From the NCBI GenBank assembly GCA_964016885.1, contig OZ024740.1, forward strand, positions 117,180,001 to 117,244,000: 64,000 bases of DNA. The letters run 5' to 3'. This DNA comes from Eledone cirrhosa (taxonomy: Eukaryota). Positions 7,100 through 57,472 of the stretch are shown here, piece after piece (the stretch's first letter is position 1; each line of letters begins with the position of its first letter). Both the position numbers and the translations under genes were made by a program. Under the pieces are notes generated by a model. The model worked only from the letters and a program-made list of their open reading frames with translations. It made no database searches and had not been told where the DNA came from.

Positions 7100-10000
7100 A
7101 CATACATACATACATACATGGTGGCTGCCAACTCGTTTTCGAGTACGGCCACTACTTTATATCCATGTAGGAGAACCCCTACCGATGCGCTGAACGAGTG
7201 TGGCTTTTTAGTCCAGCCAGCGACTTGAAAACTCTGGTACAAACACTACACATGTGACAATTATTGACACCTATTGCTGGGCCCATGGTACCATGTGACC
7301 CAAGGTGTCGTGTGAGATCACCTATCGACCTGCATACCCTTCCACAAACATTACATGTCGTCGTCTAATGAACACTTTATAGCTCCACAGGTGCCTGCTT
7401 CCCTGTTCTTGTGCACTCTCAGGTGACTCTTTAGACCTGCCATGCTCAGACAAACCCTATTACAGGTCTCAGATGTCAGGTCAGGCCCTCTGTCAGTGCC
7501 TTCGAGAAGGCCAACATGGATTCCTTTCCGGACATCTCTTTTTAGTGTCGCGTGCCTTCTTCTTGTTTCCTCAAATAGACTGTTGCCGCTAGCCACTGCT
7601 TTCCTCCAATGCGATCGGTCGCTAGCGCATCCTTCCCAGTGCTCACAAGGAATGTTACTTTTCTTGAGCGCCCCCTTGATGCAGTCCTTAAAACGCATCT
7701 TGGGTTTGCTCGCGTTCCTTTTTCCCATTTGGAGCTTGCCATAAAGCAGCTGCTTCGGCATTCGCTTGTCATTCATCCTTACAAGATGGCCTGTCCAGCG
7801 CAGCTGATGTTTCAAAATCAAGGAATCGACACTATCATAGCCACTTCTGTCCAGAACCTCGACGTCACTGACAAACATTTGCCAAGTTATGCCGAGGATC
7901 CGACGTAAGCAGTACTGGTGGAACCTCTCAAGTCGCTTCATCTGTCTACGGTAGACCACCCACGTCTCACAAGCATAAAGAAGTGCCGCGAGCACACACG
8001 CATGATTCACTTTGAGCTTTGTCTTTATTGAAATTCCGTGTTGAGACCAGAGACGCTTGTTCAGTTTTCCAAAAGCACCACTGGCTTTCTGTATCCTGTT
8101 TGATATTTCCCCATCGCAGGACATACTCAGAGTGCTTCCAAGATATACAAAACTGCCAACGACCCTTAGCCTTTCACCATAAACCAAGATGTTGGGCTCA
8201 CAACATCGCTTCCCAGGGGCTGGTTGGTACATGGCTACTGTCTTTTTCAGGCTTATGGTAAGTCCCAATGCAGTACACGCATTAGAAAATGCATCCATGA
8301 GATGCTGCATATCAATCTCCGTGTGCGCTACCAGGTCACAGTCATCTGCATAAAGGAAATCCTGATTAGTGACAAGTGAACCTTTGACTTAGCATCGAAC
8401 CTCCTGATATTAAACAGCTTTCCAGTTGATCGATAGCGAACATATATACCATGATTGCAGTTCCCGAAGGCCTGTTCGAAGACAATGGAGAAGTACAAAG
8501 CAAAGAGCGTTGGAGCTGGAATGTCACCCTGTTTGACTCCATTCTCGACCGTCACCGGCTCAGAGAGCGTTCCACCAACATTTACCCATGCCTTCATGTC
8601 ATCATGAAACAAACGCAAAATGGAAACAAACTTCTCAGGGCACCCCAGCTTCCTCGAGATATCCCATAAAGCCTTTCTGTTGACCGTGTCAAACGCCTTT
8701 GTCAGATCAACAAACACCTGGTAGAGATCCACATTCTGCTCAACACACTTTTCATTCAGTTGTCTGGCTGTAAAGATCATGTCCACAGTGCCACGCCCAG
8801 CCCGAAAGGCCGATTGCGACTCTGGTAGAGCTTCATCAGCAATGTGGAGCAATAAACGGTCCAACAGTATTCTACAGAGAACTTTGCCGACAACAGACAA
8901 CAGTGATATCCCACGATAGTTTCCGCAGTCATCCCTGTCTCGCTTTCCCTTGTACAAAACAACCATCACAGCATCCTTCCAGTCATCGGGAACATGATTG
9001 TTGTTCCAGGCATCCAGAACCAGAGAAGGAAGTCGGTGCAAGAGATTCTCTCCACCGTGCTTCAAGATCTCAGCATACAGCCCATCCAATCCAGGCGACT
9101 TCCCACCATTGAGTTTCCAGACAGCACTTTTAACCTCCTCGATCGTTGGAGGCTCAGCAAGGATTTCCTTTACTGGCCTATCAGGTATGGACCTGATAAA
9201 CTCTTCGTCAACCTCTGAATCCCTATTGAGAAGCTCGCCAAAGTGTTCCCGCCATCTCAATAGGATATCATTGGGATCTCTAAGGAGCTGATTGCCATCC
9301 TTTGTCCTAAGAGGCGCAACTGGTGATGTAGGTGGTCCATACACTTCACGAATAATATTATACATTGCCTTAACGTCCTTCACATCCGACGCAAGTTGTA
9401 TTTCATCGGCTTTGTCATTCCACCACTTATTCTTCATTTCACGCAATTTTCGTTGCACATCTGCTTTTACGAGCTTCAGCTTATCAGCGATCGGTGCTTA
9501 AATCACTACCAAGCAATGCGGAGTGAAGCATATGTTTCTCCTCCAAAAGCTTGTCTATAAGCTTGTCATTTTGGTCAAACCAATCCTGATGCTTCTTATC
9601 CGTGAATCCAACAACATCAGCAGATACCACATAAACTGCCTCGTTAAAGAAAGTCCAGTCATTTCCACACTCTAACGCATCCATCTTTTTAACCAGATTT
9701 TCTCTGACTTCAGGATCCTTCAGACGGGCAACGTTCAGCCGTTTCGGAAGTGATACCCCTCGCCGTTTCTCCCTTTTACGAACTACACATCTTGCTCTTG
9801 CTCTCACCAGACGATAGTCGGTCCAACACTCTGCCCCACGCATCACACGAACACTCCACAGATCCTGTACATCCCGCCGCCTCGCAAGGACATAATCAAT
9901 CAGGTGCCACTGTTTCGATCCAGGATGCATCCATGTTGTCTTGTATTTGTCCTTCTGTTGGAACATAGTGCTGCCAATGAACAAGTCCAGCTCAGTGCAC

Positions 10001-11181
10001 ATTTGCAATAACAAGAGTCCATTGCCAATGTACTTTCCGAGCCCATGCTTGCCCAGAGATCTCCAGGTCTCACAATCACAGCCCGCGCGAGCATTAAAAT
10101 CTCCAAGAATGAAAATGTTGTCTGCTGCAGGCACTTTCCAGACAAGAGACCTTAATTCGTCATAAAAAACCTGCTTTGTTTCATCAATGCATTCCATAGT
10201 GGGTGCATAAGCACCAATCACGGTTGCATATCTTCCACCCTCTAGAAGAACTCTCACAGTGATCAGTCTATCACTAATGCCTGTCGGCAGCTCCTGAAGA
10301 TGGTCAGTTATAACTGTTTTTATGGCAAAAGTGACACCAGCTTCCCTCCTCCCCCCCTTCCTTCTCCTCCAGAAAAACGTATATCCACCGGGTTTCTCTG
10401 TGAAATGGCCCTCACCATGAAATCGAGTTTCTGAGAGGGCCACAACATCCATATCATAACGCCTGAGCTCCTTGGCAACCAATGCCGATCTTCTTTCAGG
10501 TCGCTGTACATTTGTTTCAATATCAAGAAAAGTACGCACATTCCAGCACCCAAAATTGAGTGGTTTGCACACAGTAGACCGATGAAGACCGGGCCCAGAC
10601 TGTGGCGCCCAGGGACACCTGCCGGGCCAGACCCTTTCACATGATGCTGATCCAGAGCCCTTATTGCCATTTACTTCAATTGTGTTAGGTACCTTCATTG
10701 TAATGTAGTTTGCCTTTTTAGGCTACGGCCAGCCAGAGTTCCACATCAAGATGACACGTGCAGAGAGATCTCCAGATATAAAGCAATACCTGTGCCGTGA
10801 AGCTTTTATAGTGAGCAAAGGCACTGCACAAAGCCAGTCCCACTCTCTTAACCAAGATGATATTTACCAAAAAGAAGAACAAGTCAACATCATTGGATAC
10901 CATCAGAGTTGCAGGTGTTATATCAGAGTTTTCCTTCTAGAATTCTGCCTTGACAAAGGCTAAGGGGTCATCTCTCCCGGTGATTTTGGATGGCCATTGA
11001 CTCTTAAGAGCTCCTTTGCCCTTTGACAGGTTTTGTTTTTAGTCCTGCAGGATGTTCAAAGTCACCCTCCTCACCAAGAAACCTTGGTGGGGTTGCCAGT
11101 TTAATCGCCAACGACCCGACCATGGGACAGGTTGTACTGGGATACATGTTACCATTAGCACCAACTGGTGACCTGACACAA
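7097..11181 (-). mobile_element. Near-full-length RTE-clade (BovB-like) LINE inserted in (CATA)n
   Basis: APE endonuclease, RT and C-terminal ORF segments with 5' and 3' UTRs. (CATA)n on both flanks (7097-7118, 11182-11233). Confidence 0.95.
7351..10698 (-). pseudogene. RTE ORF (AP endonuclease-reverse transcriptase), disrupted by two frameshifts (about 9484 and 8362)
   Basis: Endonuclease motifs CWNVRT, ALSETR, AYAPT, LGDFNAR, HLIDYV and TDY (H to Y). RT motifs NYRGISLL, FVDLTKAFD, GVKQGD and frameshifted DFLYADD. C-terminal QLRWTGHL and CNRVC..LKSHLRVH. Confidence 0.93.
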
Positions 11182-18991: not shown

Positions 18992-19129
18992 AGGGATAAC
19001 AAAATATCGTTATAGGTAATCCAGTTAGAGGTTGTGAATACTTCTTATTATGGATAGTTTCAGCGTATAGCATTGTTTGACTCAACAAGAGGTTTACGTA
19101 GATGGCGAGTTTATGATTTCACTTGGCAC

Positions 19130-19814
19130 ATGTTCGTACATTTCAGATCGGCCCTCCCACTCGGTGCCAAGTTCGGATACATAAAGAACGAACTGGCACG
19201 TATCAAGAACAAATGCACCGACGCCAGAGACCGAGACACACACACCACACATTTCCTGGAAGTACTCAAACTGAACGGATACACGACATCCACCACAAAC
19301 CGTGCCAGAAAGAACAGAGGACACCACACCCGAGGCACTAACACTTGCTTCCTGAAGCTCCCACACTTCAGTGAAGAAACAACAACAGCCATCCGCAGAG
19401 CCATCAGACGAGAGGGACTGGATATCCAACTGGCCCACTCGGGTCCTTCTTTGCGCGGACGGCTGGCTAAGAGACACTCCACCAGACATGACAACTGCTG
19501 CAGGCTAGCCAACTGCCCCATCAACGACACAGACCTATGCCACCAGGCTTACGTAGTATACAGACTAGAGTGTGACAAATGCAACAACTTCTACGTAGGT
19601 AGCACCACCAGACCACTCCACATAAGAATAAAAGAACACCTCATTTAAGAAACACCTAGTTAAATGCAAAAATACCGATAAAAGCATAACAGTTAGGATA
19701 GCAACTAAGGAAAGAAACCTCGGCAATCTTAGAATTAAGGAAGCACTTATTATAGATAGAACACATCCACCAATCAATAATAGACTAGAGCTCAACACCC
19801 AATTTATAACCTGA
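19130..19814 (+). pseudogene. PLE ORF remnant, GIY-YIG endonuclease
   Basis: ORF 19073-19648 plus a frameshifted continuation to TGA at about 19814. Confidence 0.85.
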
Positions 19815-20429: not shown

Positions 20430-21265
20430 TATGTTTTTTGGCAACCATTCACAGTGGCTCAATGACGAATTAATTAAATAATTAATAATCAGAGCAATAT
20501 ATAAAAAGTAAGTCCATAGAATCATTAGATAAAATATATACAGTATTTCTTCTTCCAATCAGCATAAATTAACCACACAAAAAATCATTTAAACGAGGCT
20601 ATAGGTTTAAAATATATCTATGAAGAAATAGTAGATAAATGATATAGCTCTTTATCTGCGATTCACAGCTATAGAAAATTTACCCATTATTTCTTATAGC
20701 CTGTAGAAATTGACTAAACATATAGTTAACCATACATAATTAGTTGCAAAATCAAAGTTAGAAGAAAAAATGCACATAAACATACCGAACTTTCATACCG
20801 GCAGTTTCATTCCGTTTTTGGATATATCCGATCTTGGATAAATCAACGAGGTTGGAAATCATCAGGAGATAAACTCAATTGGACAAAGATTTTTCTTACA
20901 TGATCCCCGCCAGAAACGAATTCAAAATGGCTAAGAATCGTCACGTGGCTAGAGGTCAAGGCAGAAAGTTTGTGATTGGTGCCTGTCGGCGAGTAGGCTG
21001 GTTGCTAGAAAGCGCAGCCGAATACTGCCTAAAGTTTTACTCAACCTTACGGGAGTATATACAATTTAAAGGGTATATACACATAAACTACTGGTAGTAG
21101 AGATGTATTGATGAGTTTGGTATGTTTATGTGCATTTGTTCTTCTAACTTTGATTTTGCAACTAATTATGTATGGTTCACTATATGTCTAGTCAATTTCT
21201 ACAGGCTATCAGAAATAATGGGTAAATTTTCTATAGCTGTGAATCTAATGATTCTATGGACCTAC
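20430..21265 (-). mobile_element. HHR-bearing PLE-like element with about 135-bp inverted duplication
   Basis: 20660-20792 is inverted at about 21113-21245. HHR-like motif at 20793-20868 (minus): CUGAUGA U UUCC...GGAA U GAAAC UGCCG GUA. Confidence 0.75.
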
Positions 21266-22840: not shown

Positions 22841-22956
22841 ATATTATATATATATATATGCGGTGATATGCAGTAAAAGCTAGTTAGACCATTACTCATA
22901 TATATATATATACATATATATGTATACATACATACATATATATTTATATATATATA

Positions 22957-22997
<41 letters not shown>

Positions 22998-23051
22998 CGT
23001 TTCTGAATTTGTTTAGCAAGATTCTTTATCTGAAATCGTGTGTTGAAACCG

Positions 23052-23561
23052 ATATTGTTATAATTTGGGAGGGTCATGTTGCCAATAAGAAACACACGCA
23101 CCAGTCGCTTTCACTTCAATTTAATTTATTAAATATTTATAAATTTACAAATTTATAAATTTCTGGTTGGTTGGTTGGTTCCACAACCAGATAGTTGTTT
23201 ATATATATATAGTCATAGTTCTTTCGTCACACACTCTGTGACCTCTTCAGTGACTGGGGATTTCTTTCTTCGTTTCTGTGCCTTTCTTTTCTTCTATTCT
23301 ACGCCATTTTGTTTTGGCGTAGGATAGAAGAAAGGAAAGGCACAGAAACGAAGAAAGAAATCCCCAGTCACTGAAGAGGTCACAGAGTGTGTGACGAAAG
23401 AACTATGACTATATATATATAAACAACTATCTGGTTGTGGAACCAACCAACCAACCAGAAATTTATAAATTTGTAAATTTATAAATATTTAATAAATTAA
23501 ATTGAAGTGAAAGCAACTGGTGCGTGTGTTTCTTATTGGCAACATGACCCTCCCAAAGTAT

Positions 23562-23569
<8 letters not shown>
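23052..23569. repeat. About 255-bp-arm foldback palindrome (8-nt spacer) with an HHR in each arm
   Basis: Arms 23052-23306 / 23315-23569 with a few mismatches, abutting (TA)n. Confidence 0.95.
23366..23410 (+). ncRNA. Type I hammerhead ribozyme (mirror copy at 23211-23255, minus)
   Basis: AGUCA|CUGAAGA G GUCAC AGAGUGU GUGAC GAAAG AA CUA|UGACU. Confidence 0.85.
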
Positions 23570-23654
<85 letters not shown>

Positions 23655-23662
23655 TATGTATG

Positions 23663-23736
<74 letters not shown>

Positions 23737-23759
23737 TAATATATATATATATTAATATA

Positions 23760-24045
23760 TGTAGAAATAAACAGTAAATTCTGCGTCTAAAATTACGAGG
23801 GTAGATTATACCACAGATGTGGATTATACCACTGATGAAATGCCTAAGGATTATCTGTTACAAAGACAATTTTCGGGGCGAAACAGATTAAATCTTTAGT
23901 CTGTCCGAGAGATGAAATCGTTATTGATACGGTCTGTATAGGAAATCTTGTATCTTACTGTATGATTCAGATTAAATATATAAAACATTTGTGGTATATC
24001 TACCCTCGTAATTTTAGACGCAGAATTTACTGTGGTTATTTCTAC
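23760..24045 (+). mobile_element. PLE-like element with about 60-bp inverted ends and an internal HHR core
   Basis: IR 23760-23820 / 23985-24045. CUGAUGA...GGC GAAACAGAUUAAA UC UUUAGUCUGUC at 23832-23905. Confidence 0.75.
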
Positions 24046-24589
24046 TTATATTATTATATAATGCTCAGTATTTATAATTTGAGCTTGTTAATTGCAGGGT
24101 ATCAATATGAGTTCATAACTCTATATTTTATTTGTGTATATATATATATATATGAGTGTGTTTGTGTGTGCGTATATGCACTTATTAAAATGACCCACCC
24201 GATATACTCTAGAGTTTCAATGATGAATTAATTAAGTTTTTGGAGGCAGGGATACAACCAAGCATTGTTGTTAAAATACTGATATCAGGTTTCTCTTTGC
24301 CGAGGTATATTTCTTTGACCGAAGTCTAGAATACAGTCCCACTTTAGTAACATGCTTCATTTATGAACATATTATATTACGTATTTTTACAAATGATCTG
24401 GATATCCAGCAGGAAAAGAGAATTATAGAAATTACATGACGAATGGGTAAATGTGTGGAAAGGGAAAAGCAAAACAAAGCAATTAATCATAAAAAGATGA
24501 AAGATTTTTTTTAATTATTAAAAAAATAAAATAAATCGAAACTGGAAAGAGAAAAGAAAGTTATATAGAAATGATGACGGGAAGATAAA

Positions 24590-36178: not shown

Positions 36179-36558
36179 ATATTAATAAGAGGAATTCCAA
36201 CTTTGTCTGATTTACTCGTTTTTTTACAATCCTTTAAAATTTATAATGGTATTATAATGAAATAGTATGATAGAATATTAAATTCTAAGTGTTAATTGAA
36301 CAAGTACTTTCATGCTTTCGCAATCTTCAGGTTCATAATGTGTGGTGACAGTCAAGTTTGCAATTTTCAACAGTTGAAAATTGCAAACTTGACTGTCACC
36401 ACATATTATGAACCTGAAGATTGCGAAAGCATGAAAGTACTTGTTAAATTAACACTTAGAATTTAATATTCTACCATACTATTTCATTATAATACCATTA
36501 TAAATTTTAAAGGATTGTAAATAAAACGAGCAAATCAGACAAAGTTGGAATTCCTCTT

Positions 36559-37239: not shown

Positions 37240-37582
37240 ATATAAGATCAAAAGATGGTTAAAAGAGTTCCATGTATTTTATTATGCGCATTTCAAAAAC
37301 AAATATCATCATGCGATGACATTTGCGTTTTCGTCAGATAAAATAGGGAGACATGGTATGAAGGTTAAAAACACTTGTGAATAGTGCAGTTTTAAATCAA
37401 CATAATTTAAAATTTGATCAACATATGTTGATTTAAAACTGCACTATTCACAAGTGTTTTTTAACCTTCATATCATGCCTCCCTATTTTATCTGACGAAA
37501 ACGCAAATGTCATCGCATGATGATATTCGTTTTTGAAATGTGCATAATAAAATACATGGAACTCTTTTAACCATCTTTTGAT

Positions 37583-51368: not shown

Positions 51369-51734
51369 GTTTTAATCACATAAACAAACTGACAGTCAGA
51401 CAGATAGAGAGACAGACAAATGATAGATAGGTAGATAGATAGGTTGATTGATTGACCGAAAACAAGATAAGATAAACAGATAGATAGATGGTTAAACAGA
51501 TGAGATAGAGACATAGAAAGAGAGGGAGATGTTTAAATAGATAGATAAAATAAGTAAACTCATAGAATATTATTGAGAACAACAAAATACTATCGGCTTC
51601 CTTGTTTTTATTGTATAGTTAATGTTCTTGGCTTAGTTCAGTTTTATTTTCATTGTATGTTTAGCTGTACGTTAAAAAACAGATTGTAGCTGAAGCTACA
51701 ATAATAGCTACCTTAAAAAACGACAATTAATATT

Positions 51735-51922
51735 AATTGTTTCTACTATTAGCACAAGGCCAGCAATTACCCAGTACATTACTGGTACTTTATTTTATCG
51801 ACCCCGTAAGGATGAAAGGCAAAGTTAACCTCGGCGGGATTTGAACTCAGAATGGCAAGGGCCGTAACTCTATGCGTCAAAGCATGGCGTCCGACTCTCT
51901 ACCGATACTGCCAATCCACTGC
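51735..51922 (-). mobile_element. Deu/Nin-core SINE with ATTAATATTAAT TSD
   Basis: Full copy with a flanking duplication. Confidence 0.92.
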
Positions 51923-52162
51923 CCATTAATATTAATGGCTTCTAATTTGGTTTCCGATTTAGGCACAAGGCCAGTTCCTTTGACGAAAGGGAAAGTTGAC
52001 TTCTGTAAAATTAGACCATAAAGAGACTGAACAACTACTGCAAAGCATTATATCCGCAACTCTACCGATTCTGCCAATCTAACATTAATATTGATAGTAA
52101 CAATTTAAAACGAATCTGTACTGTTATATCCAATTTTATTTATTGAGATGATTATATGCTGT

Positions 52163-52244
52163 GTTAGTGTGGGGAAGTGGTTTATGGTGCTAGTTCAAGG
52201 CATTAGCATCTTCTTTGGCGTAGGTTCAAGTCCCACAGTATCCA
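52163..52244 (+). pseudogene. tRNA-Leu-like pseudogene
   Basis: 82 nt colinear with eukaryotic tRNA-Leu(AAG-type): long variable arm, GGTTCAAGTCCCAC T-arm, downstream T-run. Acceptor and D stems are degenerate. Confidence 0.6.
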
Positions 52245-53109
52245 TCATTTTATGTATCTCTTCATTGCGTTGCGCTAGCATGGTCGCGTGAAACCAATAA
52301 AATGCCATTCCTCTACAAGACATGTATATATATTTTATGGGTTCCTTGAAACGGAACGGTACGTTTGTTTGACTGTCGATCTACTAATTCTGTCAATCTA
52401 CACTCATTTCTTAAACAATTATTTCTTTGACTGACCAGAAGGCCAAATACGTTGGAGAGCGAAAAAGAACGAAATGGAAAAAAAAAAAAAATAAAATAAA
52501 ATAAACAGTAGAGGTTAAATTGAGTAAAACAAGTGGAATCAACAAAAACAATAGAAAACAATAAAACGTCAATGAGAAAAGGGTGTAACAATAGGGAGAT
52601 ATCCATATAGGATAATTCAGGTCACAGAGCATAAAATCCGGATCCGTCTGGTACATCAAAGGCAAAAGTACTGTCTCCCAGTTTCTCAATATATGCTTAT
52701 AATCGCAAAATAAGAGTAAACTAGTGGTTCTCAAACTGGGGTCCTTGAACTACGTAATTTGTTAAAGACATGCAGAGGCCATTGCGCATCAATTTCTCTC
52801 TAAGTATAACTACTTCTCCATTTGATTGTTATATAACAATACGGGGTGAGAATTATTGTAACAAGTTGGAAAATTTATTTAAATAATGGGAATCCATGGT
52901 AATGAAAAGAGTAGGAACCCATTTAGCCTCGTCAATCTCACCGTTTTCACCCACTGTATGTAAATCAAACTGGTGGGCAACGCTTTCCTCGCCACCCTTA
53001 TCCACTACTTCAAGTGGTACTTGAAAAAGTTCATTGCTAATTATCATACTCAGTTTAGTGTATTTCGTTACTAATACCGTCCTGTCTATATTAATTATAT
53101 AAATAACTC

Positions 53110-53299
53110 GGGCGGTGAATTGGCAGTATCGGTAGAGGGTCGGACGCCATGCTTTGACGCATAGAGTTACAGCCCTTGCCATTCTGAGTTCAAATCCCGC
53201 CGAGGTTAACTTTGCCTTTCATCCTTACGGGGTCGATAAAATAAAGTACCAGTAATACACTGGGTAATTGCTGGCCTTGTGCCAAAAGTAGAAACAATT
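53110..53299 (+). mobile_element. Young Deu/Nin-core SINE with 16-bp TSD
   Basis: ATTAATTATATAAATA at 53090-53105 and 53297-53312. Confidence 0.95.
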
Positions 53300-55454
53300 A
53301 ATTATATAAATACCTCAGATATAGAGTGCTTTGTCTGGAAATATTAACTAAATTTCTCTCAAATTATACCCAACCACTTGAAAAATATATATACAAGATA
53401 ATGTTGTCCTAGATACACTATCTTTAAAAATAAAATAATTTTAATGCCTTTGATCATAGGTTTGGTCGATCAGGACCGATCCTACGCTAAACAACAATAA
53501 GTATATGTGTGAATGTATATGTAATATGAATGTATATGTAATATGATTTTATAATGTAAAGAAACAACTATTTAAAATAAAATAAGAAAAGAAAGTAAAA
53601 TGGCAGTCAGTCAATGTCAAAACGTTTCAGATGAATTTATATTATAGTTCTATTATAGTGGAGCCAAAGCTTCGTTGGGTTATTGAAACGATAATATCCA
53701 AAGCAGACATAAGCAATTCTCTTTAAATATCATATATGGTATCCCTAGATAGACATTGCTTTGTAATGGTGACTGAAAATGAGGGGTGATGGAGTGAAAG
53801 GAAGTTGGGTGAATGAAATGATCTGCTGAATGTTTGAGAAGACATCTTTTAGAACGAACATTTAGACGAGATTAACCGGTTTCTACATTAGCTCATAATT
53901 TGAAATGGGGAATAATACAAGTCGGAAATAATCTTCAGATAAAGCCCCAAAGCAGATATCATAAAAATGTTTTATTGCTATTGTTATTGTTGTTGCTGTT
54001 GCTGGTGGTGGTGTTATTATTATTATTATTATTTCAGAGAAGATAAGGGAAAGAAAGTAGTGGAAATTAACGGGGAAAGACCCTAACTAACGTGTTAAAA
54101 CATTCCTATTTAGCTTACTCATCCATCATCTGTTAAAGCAAAAAATACTCAAACTATCTGTGACCCGGCACAGCGGAATATATATATATGGGGGGGGGGG
54201 GTCTATTTAATCATGAACTACACATATGAAATAAATAATAATCCACTCAAAGGTCCAGACAAACGAAGTAAACATTAAAGATAGGGATGGTTTAAAATGT
54301 TTTCATTTTACTAAGACTCTAGTATGTGGAAGTAAATCCATATTACAATTTATCAGGCTTACAACAAAATAGCAATGAAAAAAATCTTTTCCCCATACAT
54401 ACTGTAGAATCACATTGAACTTTAGATCTACTTGGTATGTCTCAAATAAGTTGAATCTCTTGGCTTATTAACTTATTAATCTTGTTTTATATAGAGTAAT
54501 AAGTAAATAGGTCGAGCGATATAAGAAGAACCATGGCTGAGAGGTTCGTGTCTATCCTATGACGATAGAAGTTCGACAAATAGGGTTCGATGTATTAAGT
54601 ACTCGACTTGAAAAAATATATATTGGCGTCGATATACTCAACTAAAATGCTTATAAAGCGGTCCTTGTTTGGCATTAGTCTGGTGACTGAAACCAGTAAA
54701 ATTATAAAAGAAAAGAATAAAAAGTATGGACCTGATATTTCTAATATAGACACTCTTGCGTTCTCGTTTCTGAGAAGCAAGAAGCTTCATAGAAATATAT
54801 GATTCGGCAATCTAGCTATGAGCCATGACTGAGTTTTTAATATGTAAAGGACATGCCTAGAAATTAAAAAAATAAAGATAAAATAAAATTTACAGGTCCC
54901 ACATATGCTGGCCTCCTGCAAAGTTACATCTCTTAGAGGGTTTTTAGGATGTTTTAAGGCTTAGGGTAAGGGTTGGCGTTTGAAGAATTTTTAGGATTCT
55001 AGTAAAATTATTAATTTATTACTAAGATAGTAACTTAAATTATGATTCTTATATAAAATTATGCTGGAAGATTTTAGTTTAAAAGCTAACCCAAATATGT
55101 GTTTTAGTATATAGAATCAGAACTGGATTTAGCCAGGTTGATATCAAAAGTGGTAATGATAGTGGCTCCAATCCTATCATGAAAAGTAACGGGAAATGGA
55201 GCGTCTTGCTCAAGAACACAACGTGCCATTCGGTTCAGAAATTCAATCTACGACCTTATGATCACGTGTTGAACAATCTAACCACCAGGCCACACCCCTA
55301 TCTCTTTGAGAGATTGTGTATAATTTCATTATCATAGTTCACATAATCTCGCCACCCGTAAATGTATGGGTGTGTTGTTGCATTTATTTATGTGTGCGTC
55401 AATGGATGCGTGTACGTATTCGTATGTTTCTGGGTGTACCAGTGAAGGAATGAC

Positions 55455-57115: not shown

Positions 57116-57472
57116 AAGTTAAAACAATGAAATAAAAAATCAAGTCATTAGAAATATACTTCACTGCTTTACGATTGTTTCTAGGTGATGATAATACATC
57201 GTAACTATACTTCGATATCGATCTATGTAACGTTGGTTACAAAATATCAGATAAAGAGAATATTTACTTACATGCATATCACCACTTTTGACAACAGCTG
57301 GTGATATGCATGTAAGTAAATATTCTCTTTATCTGATATTTTGTAACCAACCTTACATAGATCGATATCGAAGTATAGTTACGATGTATTATCATCACCT
57401 AGAAACGATCGTAAATCAGTGAAGTATATTTCTAATGACTTGATTTTTTTTATTTCAATGTTTTAACTTATA
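57112..57472. repeat. About 173-bp-arm foldback palindrome (14-nt spacer) with HHR 3' half
   Basis: Arms 57112-57284 / 57299-57472. GAAAC GAUC GUA at 57402-57413. Confidence 0.9.

What the first reader, a model, noticed from the sequence alone, without database searches (positions are those of the whole stretch)
23052..23569. 518-bp foldback with intact HHRs on both strands
The 255-bp arms differ at only a few positions, which argues for a young but real structure rather than an exact fold-back read artefact. Each arm has a well-paired HHR (5-bp stem I, 5-bp stem II, CUA site). A transcript from either strand could self-cleave or collapse into a long dsRNA hairpin that blocks the ribozyme. 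Such a hairpin would be a potential ADAR or Dicer substrate, which is relevant if the host is a coleoid (inference).
Basis: partly seen in the sequence, partly recalled or inferred. Interest (0 to 1): 0.75.

Follow-up and report, generated by a model that had tools for sequence, protein, structure and literature searches.

The report
Back-to-back Penelope retrotransposon stub
This palindrome is two short end pieces of a very abundant Penelope-type jumping gene joined head to head, a known layout that occurs at hundreds of places in this genome; its hammerhead-ribozyme motif is predicted to be switched off in read-through RNA, and the join likely marks where the element's RNA begins.

Summary
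The foldback is in the assembly as described (255-nt arms, 4 mismatches) but is ordinary. It is one insertion of a Penelope-like element (PLE): 26,134 exact arm ends genome-wide, 667 palindromes with tips at this same position, and longer copies encoding RT plus GIY-YIG endonuclease. The '8-nt loop' is templated arm sequence. The motif is the published PLE minimal hammerhead with a 2-bp helix III, reported inactive as a monomer. In read-through RNA from either strand it is predicted to be buried (stem II probability about 1e-20), so 'self-cleave or collapse' is not a real choice. What is left of interest is how such copies form. 37 of 99 sampled arms end 248-272 nt from the arm end, beside YY1/NRF1/ETS-like motifs; only 2 end at the ribozyme cut site. 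In 13 of 43 pairs the tail-less arm is the longer one. This favours two RNA-templated cDNAs running to the RNA's start. This scan already reported the same reading for other PLE families in this genome. No read spans this locus's tip; editing and expression are untested.

The parts
22992..23051 (-). One-sided 60-nt PLE tail; reads on as N-terminal codons of the parent ORF
   Evidence: Matches parent copy L031 for the first 60 of 60 bases; tail length 60 in 51 of 59 tailed arms
23052..23314 (-).
   Evidence: 98.8% identity over 323 nt (arm plus tail) to L031:2651-2973; arm length 263
23315..23569 (+). Tail-less arm: last 255 nt of the same segment
   Evidence: 99.2% to L031:2659-2913
23366..23410 (+). 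Minimal type I hammerhead motif: stem I 5 bp, CUGAAGA 23371-23377, extra G 23378, stem II from G10.1-C11.1, GAAA 23396-23399, 2-bp helix III, CUA with predicted cut after 23405
   Evidence: 3,895 exact genomic copies of a 42-nt stretch of it
23211..23255 (-). Identical hammerhead motif in the left arm
23302..23310 (-). YY1-like motif (label recalled), whole in the left arm and cut in the right arm; lies at the pile-up of arm 5' ends
   Evidence: 259 nt from the arm end, single occurrence in 4.3 kb of parent; pile-up
22992..23077 (-). First 29 codons of the parent ORF (ATG at 23077), ending in the TA repeat; not a gene here
   Evidence: 28 of 29 residues equal to L031 ORF start
22898..22991 (.). 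Left (TA)n-rich target flank
   Evidence: sequence; 106 of 115 arm ends in the sample abut TA repeats
23570..23755 (.). Right (TA)n-rich target flank; target-site duplication not discernible
   Evidence: sequence

Best explanation
The palindrome is a single non-coding insertion of a Penelope-like retrotransposon, made of two 5'-truncated copies of its ribozyme-bearing end segment joined head to head in a TA repeat, and it was likely made when the element's enzyme primed DNA synthesis from both cut strands of the target and both copies ran to what is likely the start of the element's RNA. Shown: family identity, copy number, tail on one arm, TA target, pile-up of ends. Inferred: the endonuclease nicks both strands in (TA)n; one cDNA starts at the tail end and the other 60 nt further in (the two internal start sites reported for the anole PLE); when they start in the first pLTR of the transcript they run out after about 260-330 nt; the two cDNA ends are joined with small losses or template switches. 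The hammerhead is cargo of the pLTR. In read-through RNA it is predicted to be sealed in a 255-bp duplex that would be an ordinary ADAR or small-RNA substrate; no locus-specific function is indicated.
For: Family: 53 matches among 40 scored of 1,358 candidates, most at 98%; 26,134 exact 27-mers of the arm end, 0 for the reversed control; 667 head-to-head tips within 30 nt at this position. Parent: L031 is a partial tandem and L032 an inverted-end copy; L032's 647-aa frame has weak Pfam RVT_1 and GIY-YIG matches in that order (E about 2e-4, both under Pfam's cut-off), a C-x4-CxxC linker and C,C,H,H residues around YIG, and 235 homologues at E<=1e-10. Tail on exactly one arm in 45 of 47 young pairs and 26 of 28 pairs of the broader sample, none without a tail. 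37 of 99 young arms end at 248-272 nt against 2 at 162-167, the ribozyme cut being at 164; 11 of 57 and 1 of 57 in the broader sample. ETS-, NRF1- and YY1-like words at 306, 297 and 259, each once in 4.3 kb; YY1 acts just upstream of itself in human promoters (10.1101/2023.06.27.546584, passages). Two RNA-templated arms: tail-less arm longer by >20 nt in 13 of 43 pairs, tailed arm longer in 10 of 43; the same tip recurs in two other subfamilies, with the tail on the opposite arm in L209. Arm ends are coupled: both at the hot spot in 14 of 43 pairs against 7.4 expected (p 1e-4); 5 near-equal pairs elsewhere against 0.44. Arms share source alleles: 35 of 35 pairs agree at a common A/T site. The anole PLE protein cuts and extends both strands and starts at two internal sites (PMC11167929, main text).
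Against: No RNA, CAGE or long-read data for this family or locus. No read spans this tip. The motif labels come from mammalian promoters. A modest hairpin (-13 kcal/mol, rank 5 of 114 windows) lies just upstream of the hot spot and could stop RT instead. This locus alone (tailed arm 8 nt longer) also fits a cDNA snap-back, as do the near-equal pairs. The hot-spot bounds were set after seeing data and paired arms are not independent, so the p-value of 9e-29 is optimistic. A common A/G variant at 236 differs between arms here and in L003 and L026, which argues against one RNA molecule for those loci. Several long arm lengths are lower bounds (locus or reference edge).
Confidence: 0.62

Rival explanations
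1. Same PLE insertion, but the second arm was copied from the first strand by self-priming or snap-back (of the cDNA, or on an antisense RNA as proposed for rotifer PLEs), and the endonuclease later trimmed the tail from one side.
For: PMC3846280 (passages) reads head-to-head palindromes as self-priming. Arms share alleles in 35 of 35 pairs and 5 pairs fold nearly symmetrically at arbitrary positions. Three-part junctions show back-and-forth copying at the join. This locus fits.
Against: A copy of a target-primed cDNA cannot hold sequence the cDNA lacks, yet the tail-less arm is longer by >20 nt in 13 of 43 pairs and L209 has this tip with the tail on the shorter arm. It survives only if a free two-tailed intermediate is trimmed on either side.
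Confidence: 0.22
2. Arms end at 248-272 nt because RT stalls at RNA structure there, not because the RNA begins there.
For: A -13 kcal/mol fold just upstream ranks 5 of 114 windows; 46 of 83 arms that reach the site pass it.
Against: The strongest fold in the scan (-18.7, near 80-140 nt) has about 0.18 ends per nt against 1.48 at the hot spot; three promoter-type words bracket the site; arms that pass can come from the downstream pLTR of a tandem transcript.
Confidence: 0.1
3. One reading: a functional foldback whose RNA switches between ribozyme cleavage and a long hairpin, kept for editing or small-RNA control at this locus.
For: Motifs are unmutated in both arms; an RNA starting at the centre would be free to fold the motif (stem II 0.995, stem I 0.63); octopus has very high hyper-editing and palindromic repeats are ADAR targets (PMC5625713, passages).
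Against: Intact motifs are expected in a copy 98-99% identical to its parents. Read-through RNA buries the motif. Minimal PLE hammerheads showed no cleavage as single motifs (PMC4209133, results). It is one of at least 667 such palindromes. The upstream ETS- and NRF1-like words are absent from the insertion.
Confidence: 0.04
4. The palindrome at this place is a fold-back read or assembly artefact of a single arm.
For: No read or contig in 4 runs crosses the tip; long TA tracts on both sides hinder assembly.
Against: One-sided tail, 4 arm differences, non-mirrored flanks, and family-wide rules (one tail in 45 of 47 pairs) that read fold-back would not give. The runs were short-read, reduced-representation or collapsed contigs.
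Confidence: 0.02

Closest known systems
EN+ Penelope-like elements with inverted 5'-truncated pLTR and one-sided tail (PMC8557442; PMC3846280, Adineta Pen2a)
   Same: Head-to-head inverted ends, tail on one arm made of N-terminal ORF codons, partial tandems, (TA)n target, RT followed by GIY-YIG in the parent.
   Different: Tail is 60 nt, against 30-40 bp described; here the insertion holds only the two ends, with no ORF body; the pile-up of ends at one site is not stated in the passages I read.
Neptune / Nematis PLE clades
   Same: CX2-5CxxC linker before the endonuclease, CCHH residues, TA targeting (PMC8557442 passages).
   Different: No tree with reference elements was run, so the clade is not fixed; Hydra features (no CCHH, CxCX5C linker) and Naiad features (N-terminal endonuclease) do not fit.
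Minimal type I hammerheads of metazoan PLEs (PMC4209133)
   Same: Short helix I, extra base before G10.1-C11.1, 1-2 bp helix III, location in the pLTR; that paper already notes pairs 100-700 bp apart on opposite strands.
   Different: Stem II is 5-6 bp (7-8 in Schistosoma); loop III AA is not self-complementary; older subfamily has CUU in place of CUA.
Poseidon element of Anolis, in vitro (PMC11167929)
   Same: Both strands cut and extended, two internal RT starts defining the tail, ribozyme cleavage not needed: fits the genomic pattern here.
   Different: There the ribozyme overlaps the start codon; here it lies about 135-180 nt upstream of the ATG. That paper does not address inverted copies.
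Non-LTR retrozymes (10.64898/2026.07.22.740005)
   Same: Non-coding, PLE-derived, type I hammerhead.
   Different: Retrozymes are direct tandem units with two same-strand ribozymes; this is inverted, one ribozyme per strand.

Membership tests
EN+ Penelope-like element | Parent encodes RT followed by C-terminal GIY-YIG endonuclease | tested here: met
   L032 frame: RVT_1 at 196-283 and GIY-YIG at 542-632, both weak and under Pfam cut-off; YVDD and YIG motifs in sequence; 235 homologues
EN+ Penelope-like element | pLTRs from partial tandems and inverted 5'-truncated copies | tested here: met
   L031 tandem; L032-L039 inverted with spans of 0.5-3.8 kb
EN+ Penelope-like element | Tail on one end, made of the ORF's first codons | tested here: met
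EN+ Penelope-like element | RT groups with PLE/telomerase RTs in a tree | not tested
   No named reference set was fetched
Neptune/Nematis clade | CX2-5CxxC linker and CCHH motif | tested here: met
   Read by eye from the translation; definition from PMC8557442 passages
Neptune/Nematis clade | Phylogenetic placement | not tested
   No tree run
PLE minimal type I hammerhead | CUGANGA / GAAA / NUH core with helices I and II, extra base before G10.1-C11.1, vestigial helix III | tested here: met
PLE minimal type I hammerhead | Palindromic loop III for dimer pairing | tested here: inconclusive
   Helix III strand pairs 2+2 bp around an A.A mismatch pair; duplex energy +1.4 kcal/mol
Active hammerhead ribozyme | Self-cleavage at the NUH site | not testable with these tools
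   Needs an assay; indirect: no excess of arm ends at the cut site, 2 of 99
Canonical (Rfam) hammerhead | Reaches an Rfam gathering score; stable helix III | tested here: not met
   0 hits in the window
Non-LTR retrozyme | Direct tandem units with two or more same-strand hammerheads | tested here: not met
   One motif per strand, inverted
MITE / foldback DNA transposon | Fixed ends and fixed internal structure across copies, DNA-transposon parent | tested here: not met
   Arm lengths run from about 30 to over 2,700 nt, tips differ, ends are asymmetric, parent is an RT element

The most novel reading that the evidence does not exclude
The hundreds of short palindromes of this family are a fossil record of the PLE insertion reaction: an enzyme dimer primes from both cut strands, one start with and one without the tail, copies RNA of the same source locus twice to its capped start, and joins the two cDNA ends. 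The palindrome centres then map the element's transcription start, ribozyme-cut RNA is not used as template, and the process seeds the octopus genome with self-contained perfect hairpins that could feed its hyper-editing.
Probability: 0.45. Interest if true: 0.55.

Novelty: new member of a known kind. Interest (0 to 1): 0.25.

Why it matters
The locus itself matters little: it is one of hundreds. The family statistics bear on an open question, how PLEs make their inverted ends (PMC8557442 names it as unresolved; PMC3846280 proposed self-priming). They give direct predictions: RNA 5' ends at 255-272 nt from the arm end, none at the ribozyme cut, and two RNA-templated cDNAs per insertion. I found no paper stating this in three searches (open-access library only), but earlier reports of this scan reached it on other families in this genome.

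Tried and rejected
Rfam scan: 0 hits. PDB sequence search with the parent protein: 0 hits. Sequencing runs: no RNA holder listed, so no statement on expression or editing. Reads over the tip: none in 4 of 4 runs, uninformative given library types. Insertions starting at the ribozyme cut: 2 of 99 and 1 of 57 arms within 162-167, no excess; one junction is compatible with the exact site through microhomology. A cap-derived extra G at junctions: many tips can be parsed that way, but the G is usually also templated by the other arm, so I make no claim. Editing signature in arm differences: G>A 11, A>G 9, C>T 4, T>C 2 among 38 private differences in 9,056 columns, too few. Amplification of a master palindrome: rejected, tips differ and the same tip occurs in different subfamilies with the tail on either side. 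In the broader sample many arms stopped at 431 because of an indel in the reference; these were not counted as ends. Host gene context: no exon was evident near the locus among window ORFs, not pursued. Look-ups of earlier notes by sequence and by nearby place gave nothing. Supplements of the cited papers were not read; those of PMC8557442 and PMC4209133 may list this or a related octopus family.

Full report
Observation. The window holds an inverted repeat with arms 23052-23306 and 23315-23569, 255 nt, 98% complementary, differing at four places. As RNA it folds at -440.9 kcal/mol, far beyond 100 of 100 shuffles. Each arm has a hammerhead core with 5-bp stem I, 5-6-bp stem II and a CUA triplet. 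Helix III is two base pairs around a 2-nt loop, and Rfam reports nothing in the window.

It is a high-copy repeat. The arm found 53 matches among 40 scored of 1,358 candidates, most at 98% identity. A 27-nt word at the arm end occurs 26,134 times, a 42-nt stretch of the ribozyme 3,895 times, and 667 places have two arms head to head with tips within 30 nt at the same position as here. Reversed-pattern controls were 0 in each. Raw RAD-seq reads of two runs under the same species label cover the arms thousands-fold. No read or contig of four runs crosses this copy's tip, so the family is confirmed and this copy is not.

The parent is a Penelope-like element. L031 is a partial tandem of the element with a broken reading frame; L032 is a longer inverted-end copy. 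L032's 647-aa frame gives weak RVT_1 then GIY-YIG matches, both under Pfam's cut-off, has a C-x4-CxxC linker and CCHH residues, and 235 homologues, the best named one from Octopus vulgaris at 70%. By PMC8557442 (passages) these motifs point to the Neptune or Nematis clades; no tree was run. The left arm continues for 60 nt (22992-23051) into the first codons of the parent ORF; the right arm stops without them; both sides are TA repeats. The eight bases called a loop belong to the left arm, so a 263-nt tailed arm abuts a 255-nt tail-less arm. An inverted truncated copy, a one-sided tail and TA targeting are the described PLE layout (PMC8557442 and PMC3846280, passages).

The ribozyme. It matches the minimal PLE hammerhead of PMC4209133 (parts 1-2 of 4 read, with results and discussion): short helix I, an extra base before G10.1-C11.1, vestigial helix III. 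That paper found no cleavage for a single motif, low cleavage for dimers, and already notes pairs on opposite strands 100-700 bp apart. In PMC11167929 (parts 1-2 of 4 read) the anole motif cleaves only with the protein and is not needed for insertion. Here either strand's read-through RNA makes the antisense arm first; predicted stem II probability is about 5e-21. An RNA starting at the centre could fold the motif (0.995 and 0.63 for stems II and I). Family variants keep the core and vary mostly in loop II, loop III and the base before the cut; no compensatory pair changes were seen among the 40 commonest variants.

How the palindromes form. I sampled the first 100 listed exact matches on contig C1 twice: a broad set (analysed) and a young-subfamily set out of 1,555. 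Head-to-head pairs carry exactly one tail in 26 of 28 and 45 of 47 cases, two in the rest, never none; both two-tail pairs of the young set have one arm continuing into the ORF. Of 99 young arms (the window's own left out; one duplicated locus counted twice), 37 end 248-272 nt from the arm end and 2 at 162-167, around the predicted cut at 164. The broad set gives 11 and 1 of 57. ETS-, NRF1- and YY1-like words lie at 306, 297 and 259 nt, each once in 4.3 kb of parent (labels recalled); in human promoters YY1 drives initiation just upstream of itself (10.1101/2023.06.27.546584, passages). I infer that the pile-up is the RNA's 5' end. A modest hairpin upstream is a rival.

One cDNA or two. Of 43 one-tail pairs (window, one duplicate and two two-tail pairs dropped), the tail-less arm is longer by more than 20 nt in 13 and the tailed arm in 10. 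In the 13, each arm has sequence the other lacks, which simple snap-back of a target-primed cDNA cannot give. This window's exact tip occurs at two more places in other subfamilies, one with the tail on the opposite arm. Arm ends are coupled (14 pairs both at the hot spot against 7.4 expected; 5 near-equal pairs elsewhere against 0.44) and share alleles (35 of 35 at a common site), so both arms usually come from one source. Against a single RNA molecule: a common variant at 236 differs between arms here and in two loci chosen for likeness to this one. The anole enzyme cuts and extends both strands from two internal start sites (PMC11167929), which would give this pattern. The published alternative is self-priming (PMC3846280, passages); a free two-tailed intermediate trimmed on either side is not excluded.

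Editing and small RNAs. Octopus shows very high hyper-editing, the lizard's Penelope is heavily edited, and palindromic repeats are ADAR targets (PMC5625713, passages). Nothing here tests it, and nothing shows that this locus is transcribed.

Novelty. The element class, layout and ribozyme are in print. The family may be unnamed; I did not see the supplements that could list it. The start-site and two-primer reading was not found. I had noted both ideas before seeing that this scan reached them for other PLE families in the same genome; those notes are unchecked and are not counted as support, but they gave me PMC3846280 and the arm-length test, which I then ran on this family. 10.64898/2026.07.22.740005 was read in part 1 of 5; other papers in the search lists were seen as listings only.

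Verdict. Real in the assembly, explained as a PLE stub with high confidence (about 0.95 for identity, about 0.6 for the full mechanism). New member of a known kind; interest 0.25.

Noticed in passing
L167, L182, L187, L193 (about 1,578-1,583 nt from the arm end): A second, smaller pile-up of 5' ends inside the ORF: 4 arms not cut by a locus edge; possible internal start or stall site.
   Followed up: no
window 23287 / 23334; L003; L026: A common A/G variant differs between the two arms in three loci, each time A on the tailed and G on the tail-less arm; two templates, conversion or editing.
   Followed up: partly
L130, L183, L196: Three-part junctions with short back-and-forth copies at the palindrome centre.
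   Followed up: no
window 37300-37530: Another palindrome with a minimal hammerhead-like motif on each strand (37492 +, 37337 -), unrelated in sequence; likely another PLE family.
   Followed up: no
window 23757-24047: Element with inverted ends next to the right TA flank; holds hammerhead core words but no stem I was found.
   Followed up: partly
window 20660-21245, 36219-36525, 57134-57449, 51732-53302: Further inverted repeats; the last looks like an inverted pair of SINE-type repeats (label from recall).
   Followed up: no
window 19058-19648 (+), 17852 (-), 34293 (+): GIY-YIG-like remnant frame of another PLE and two more hammerhead-like motifs.
   Followed up: no
window 7351-10722 (-): Frameshifted LINE with endonuclease and RT frames, RTE-like by eye.
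   Followed up: no
L031 3614-4100: Parent ORF has a long asparagine/threonine/histidine-rich low-complexity stretch, recalling the N-rich inserts of rotifer PLEs in PMC3846280.
   Followed up: no
G000:C1 63,066,977-63,075,864: Three same-strand ribozyme matches 4.4 kb apart: probably a triple tandem of full-length units.
   Followed up: no
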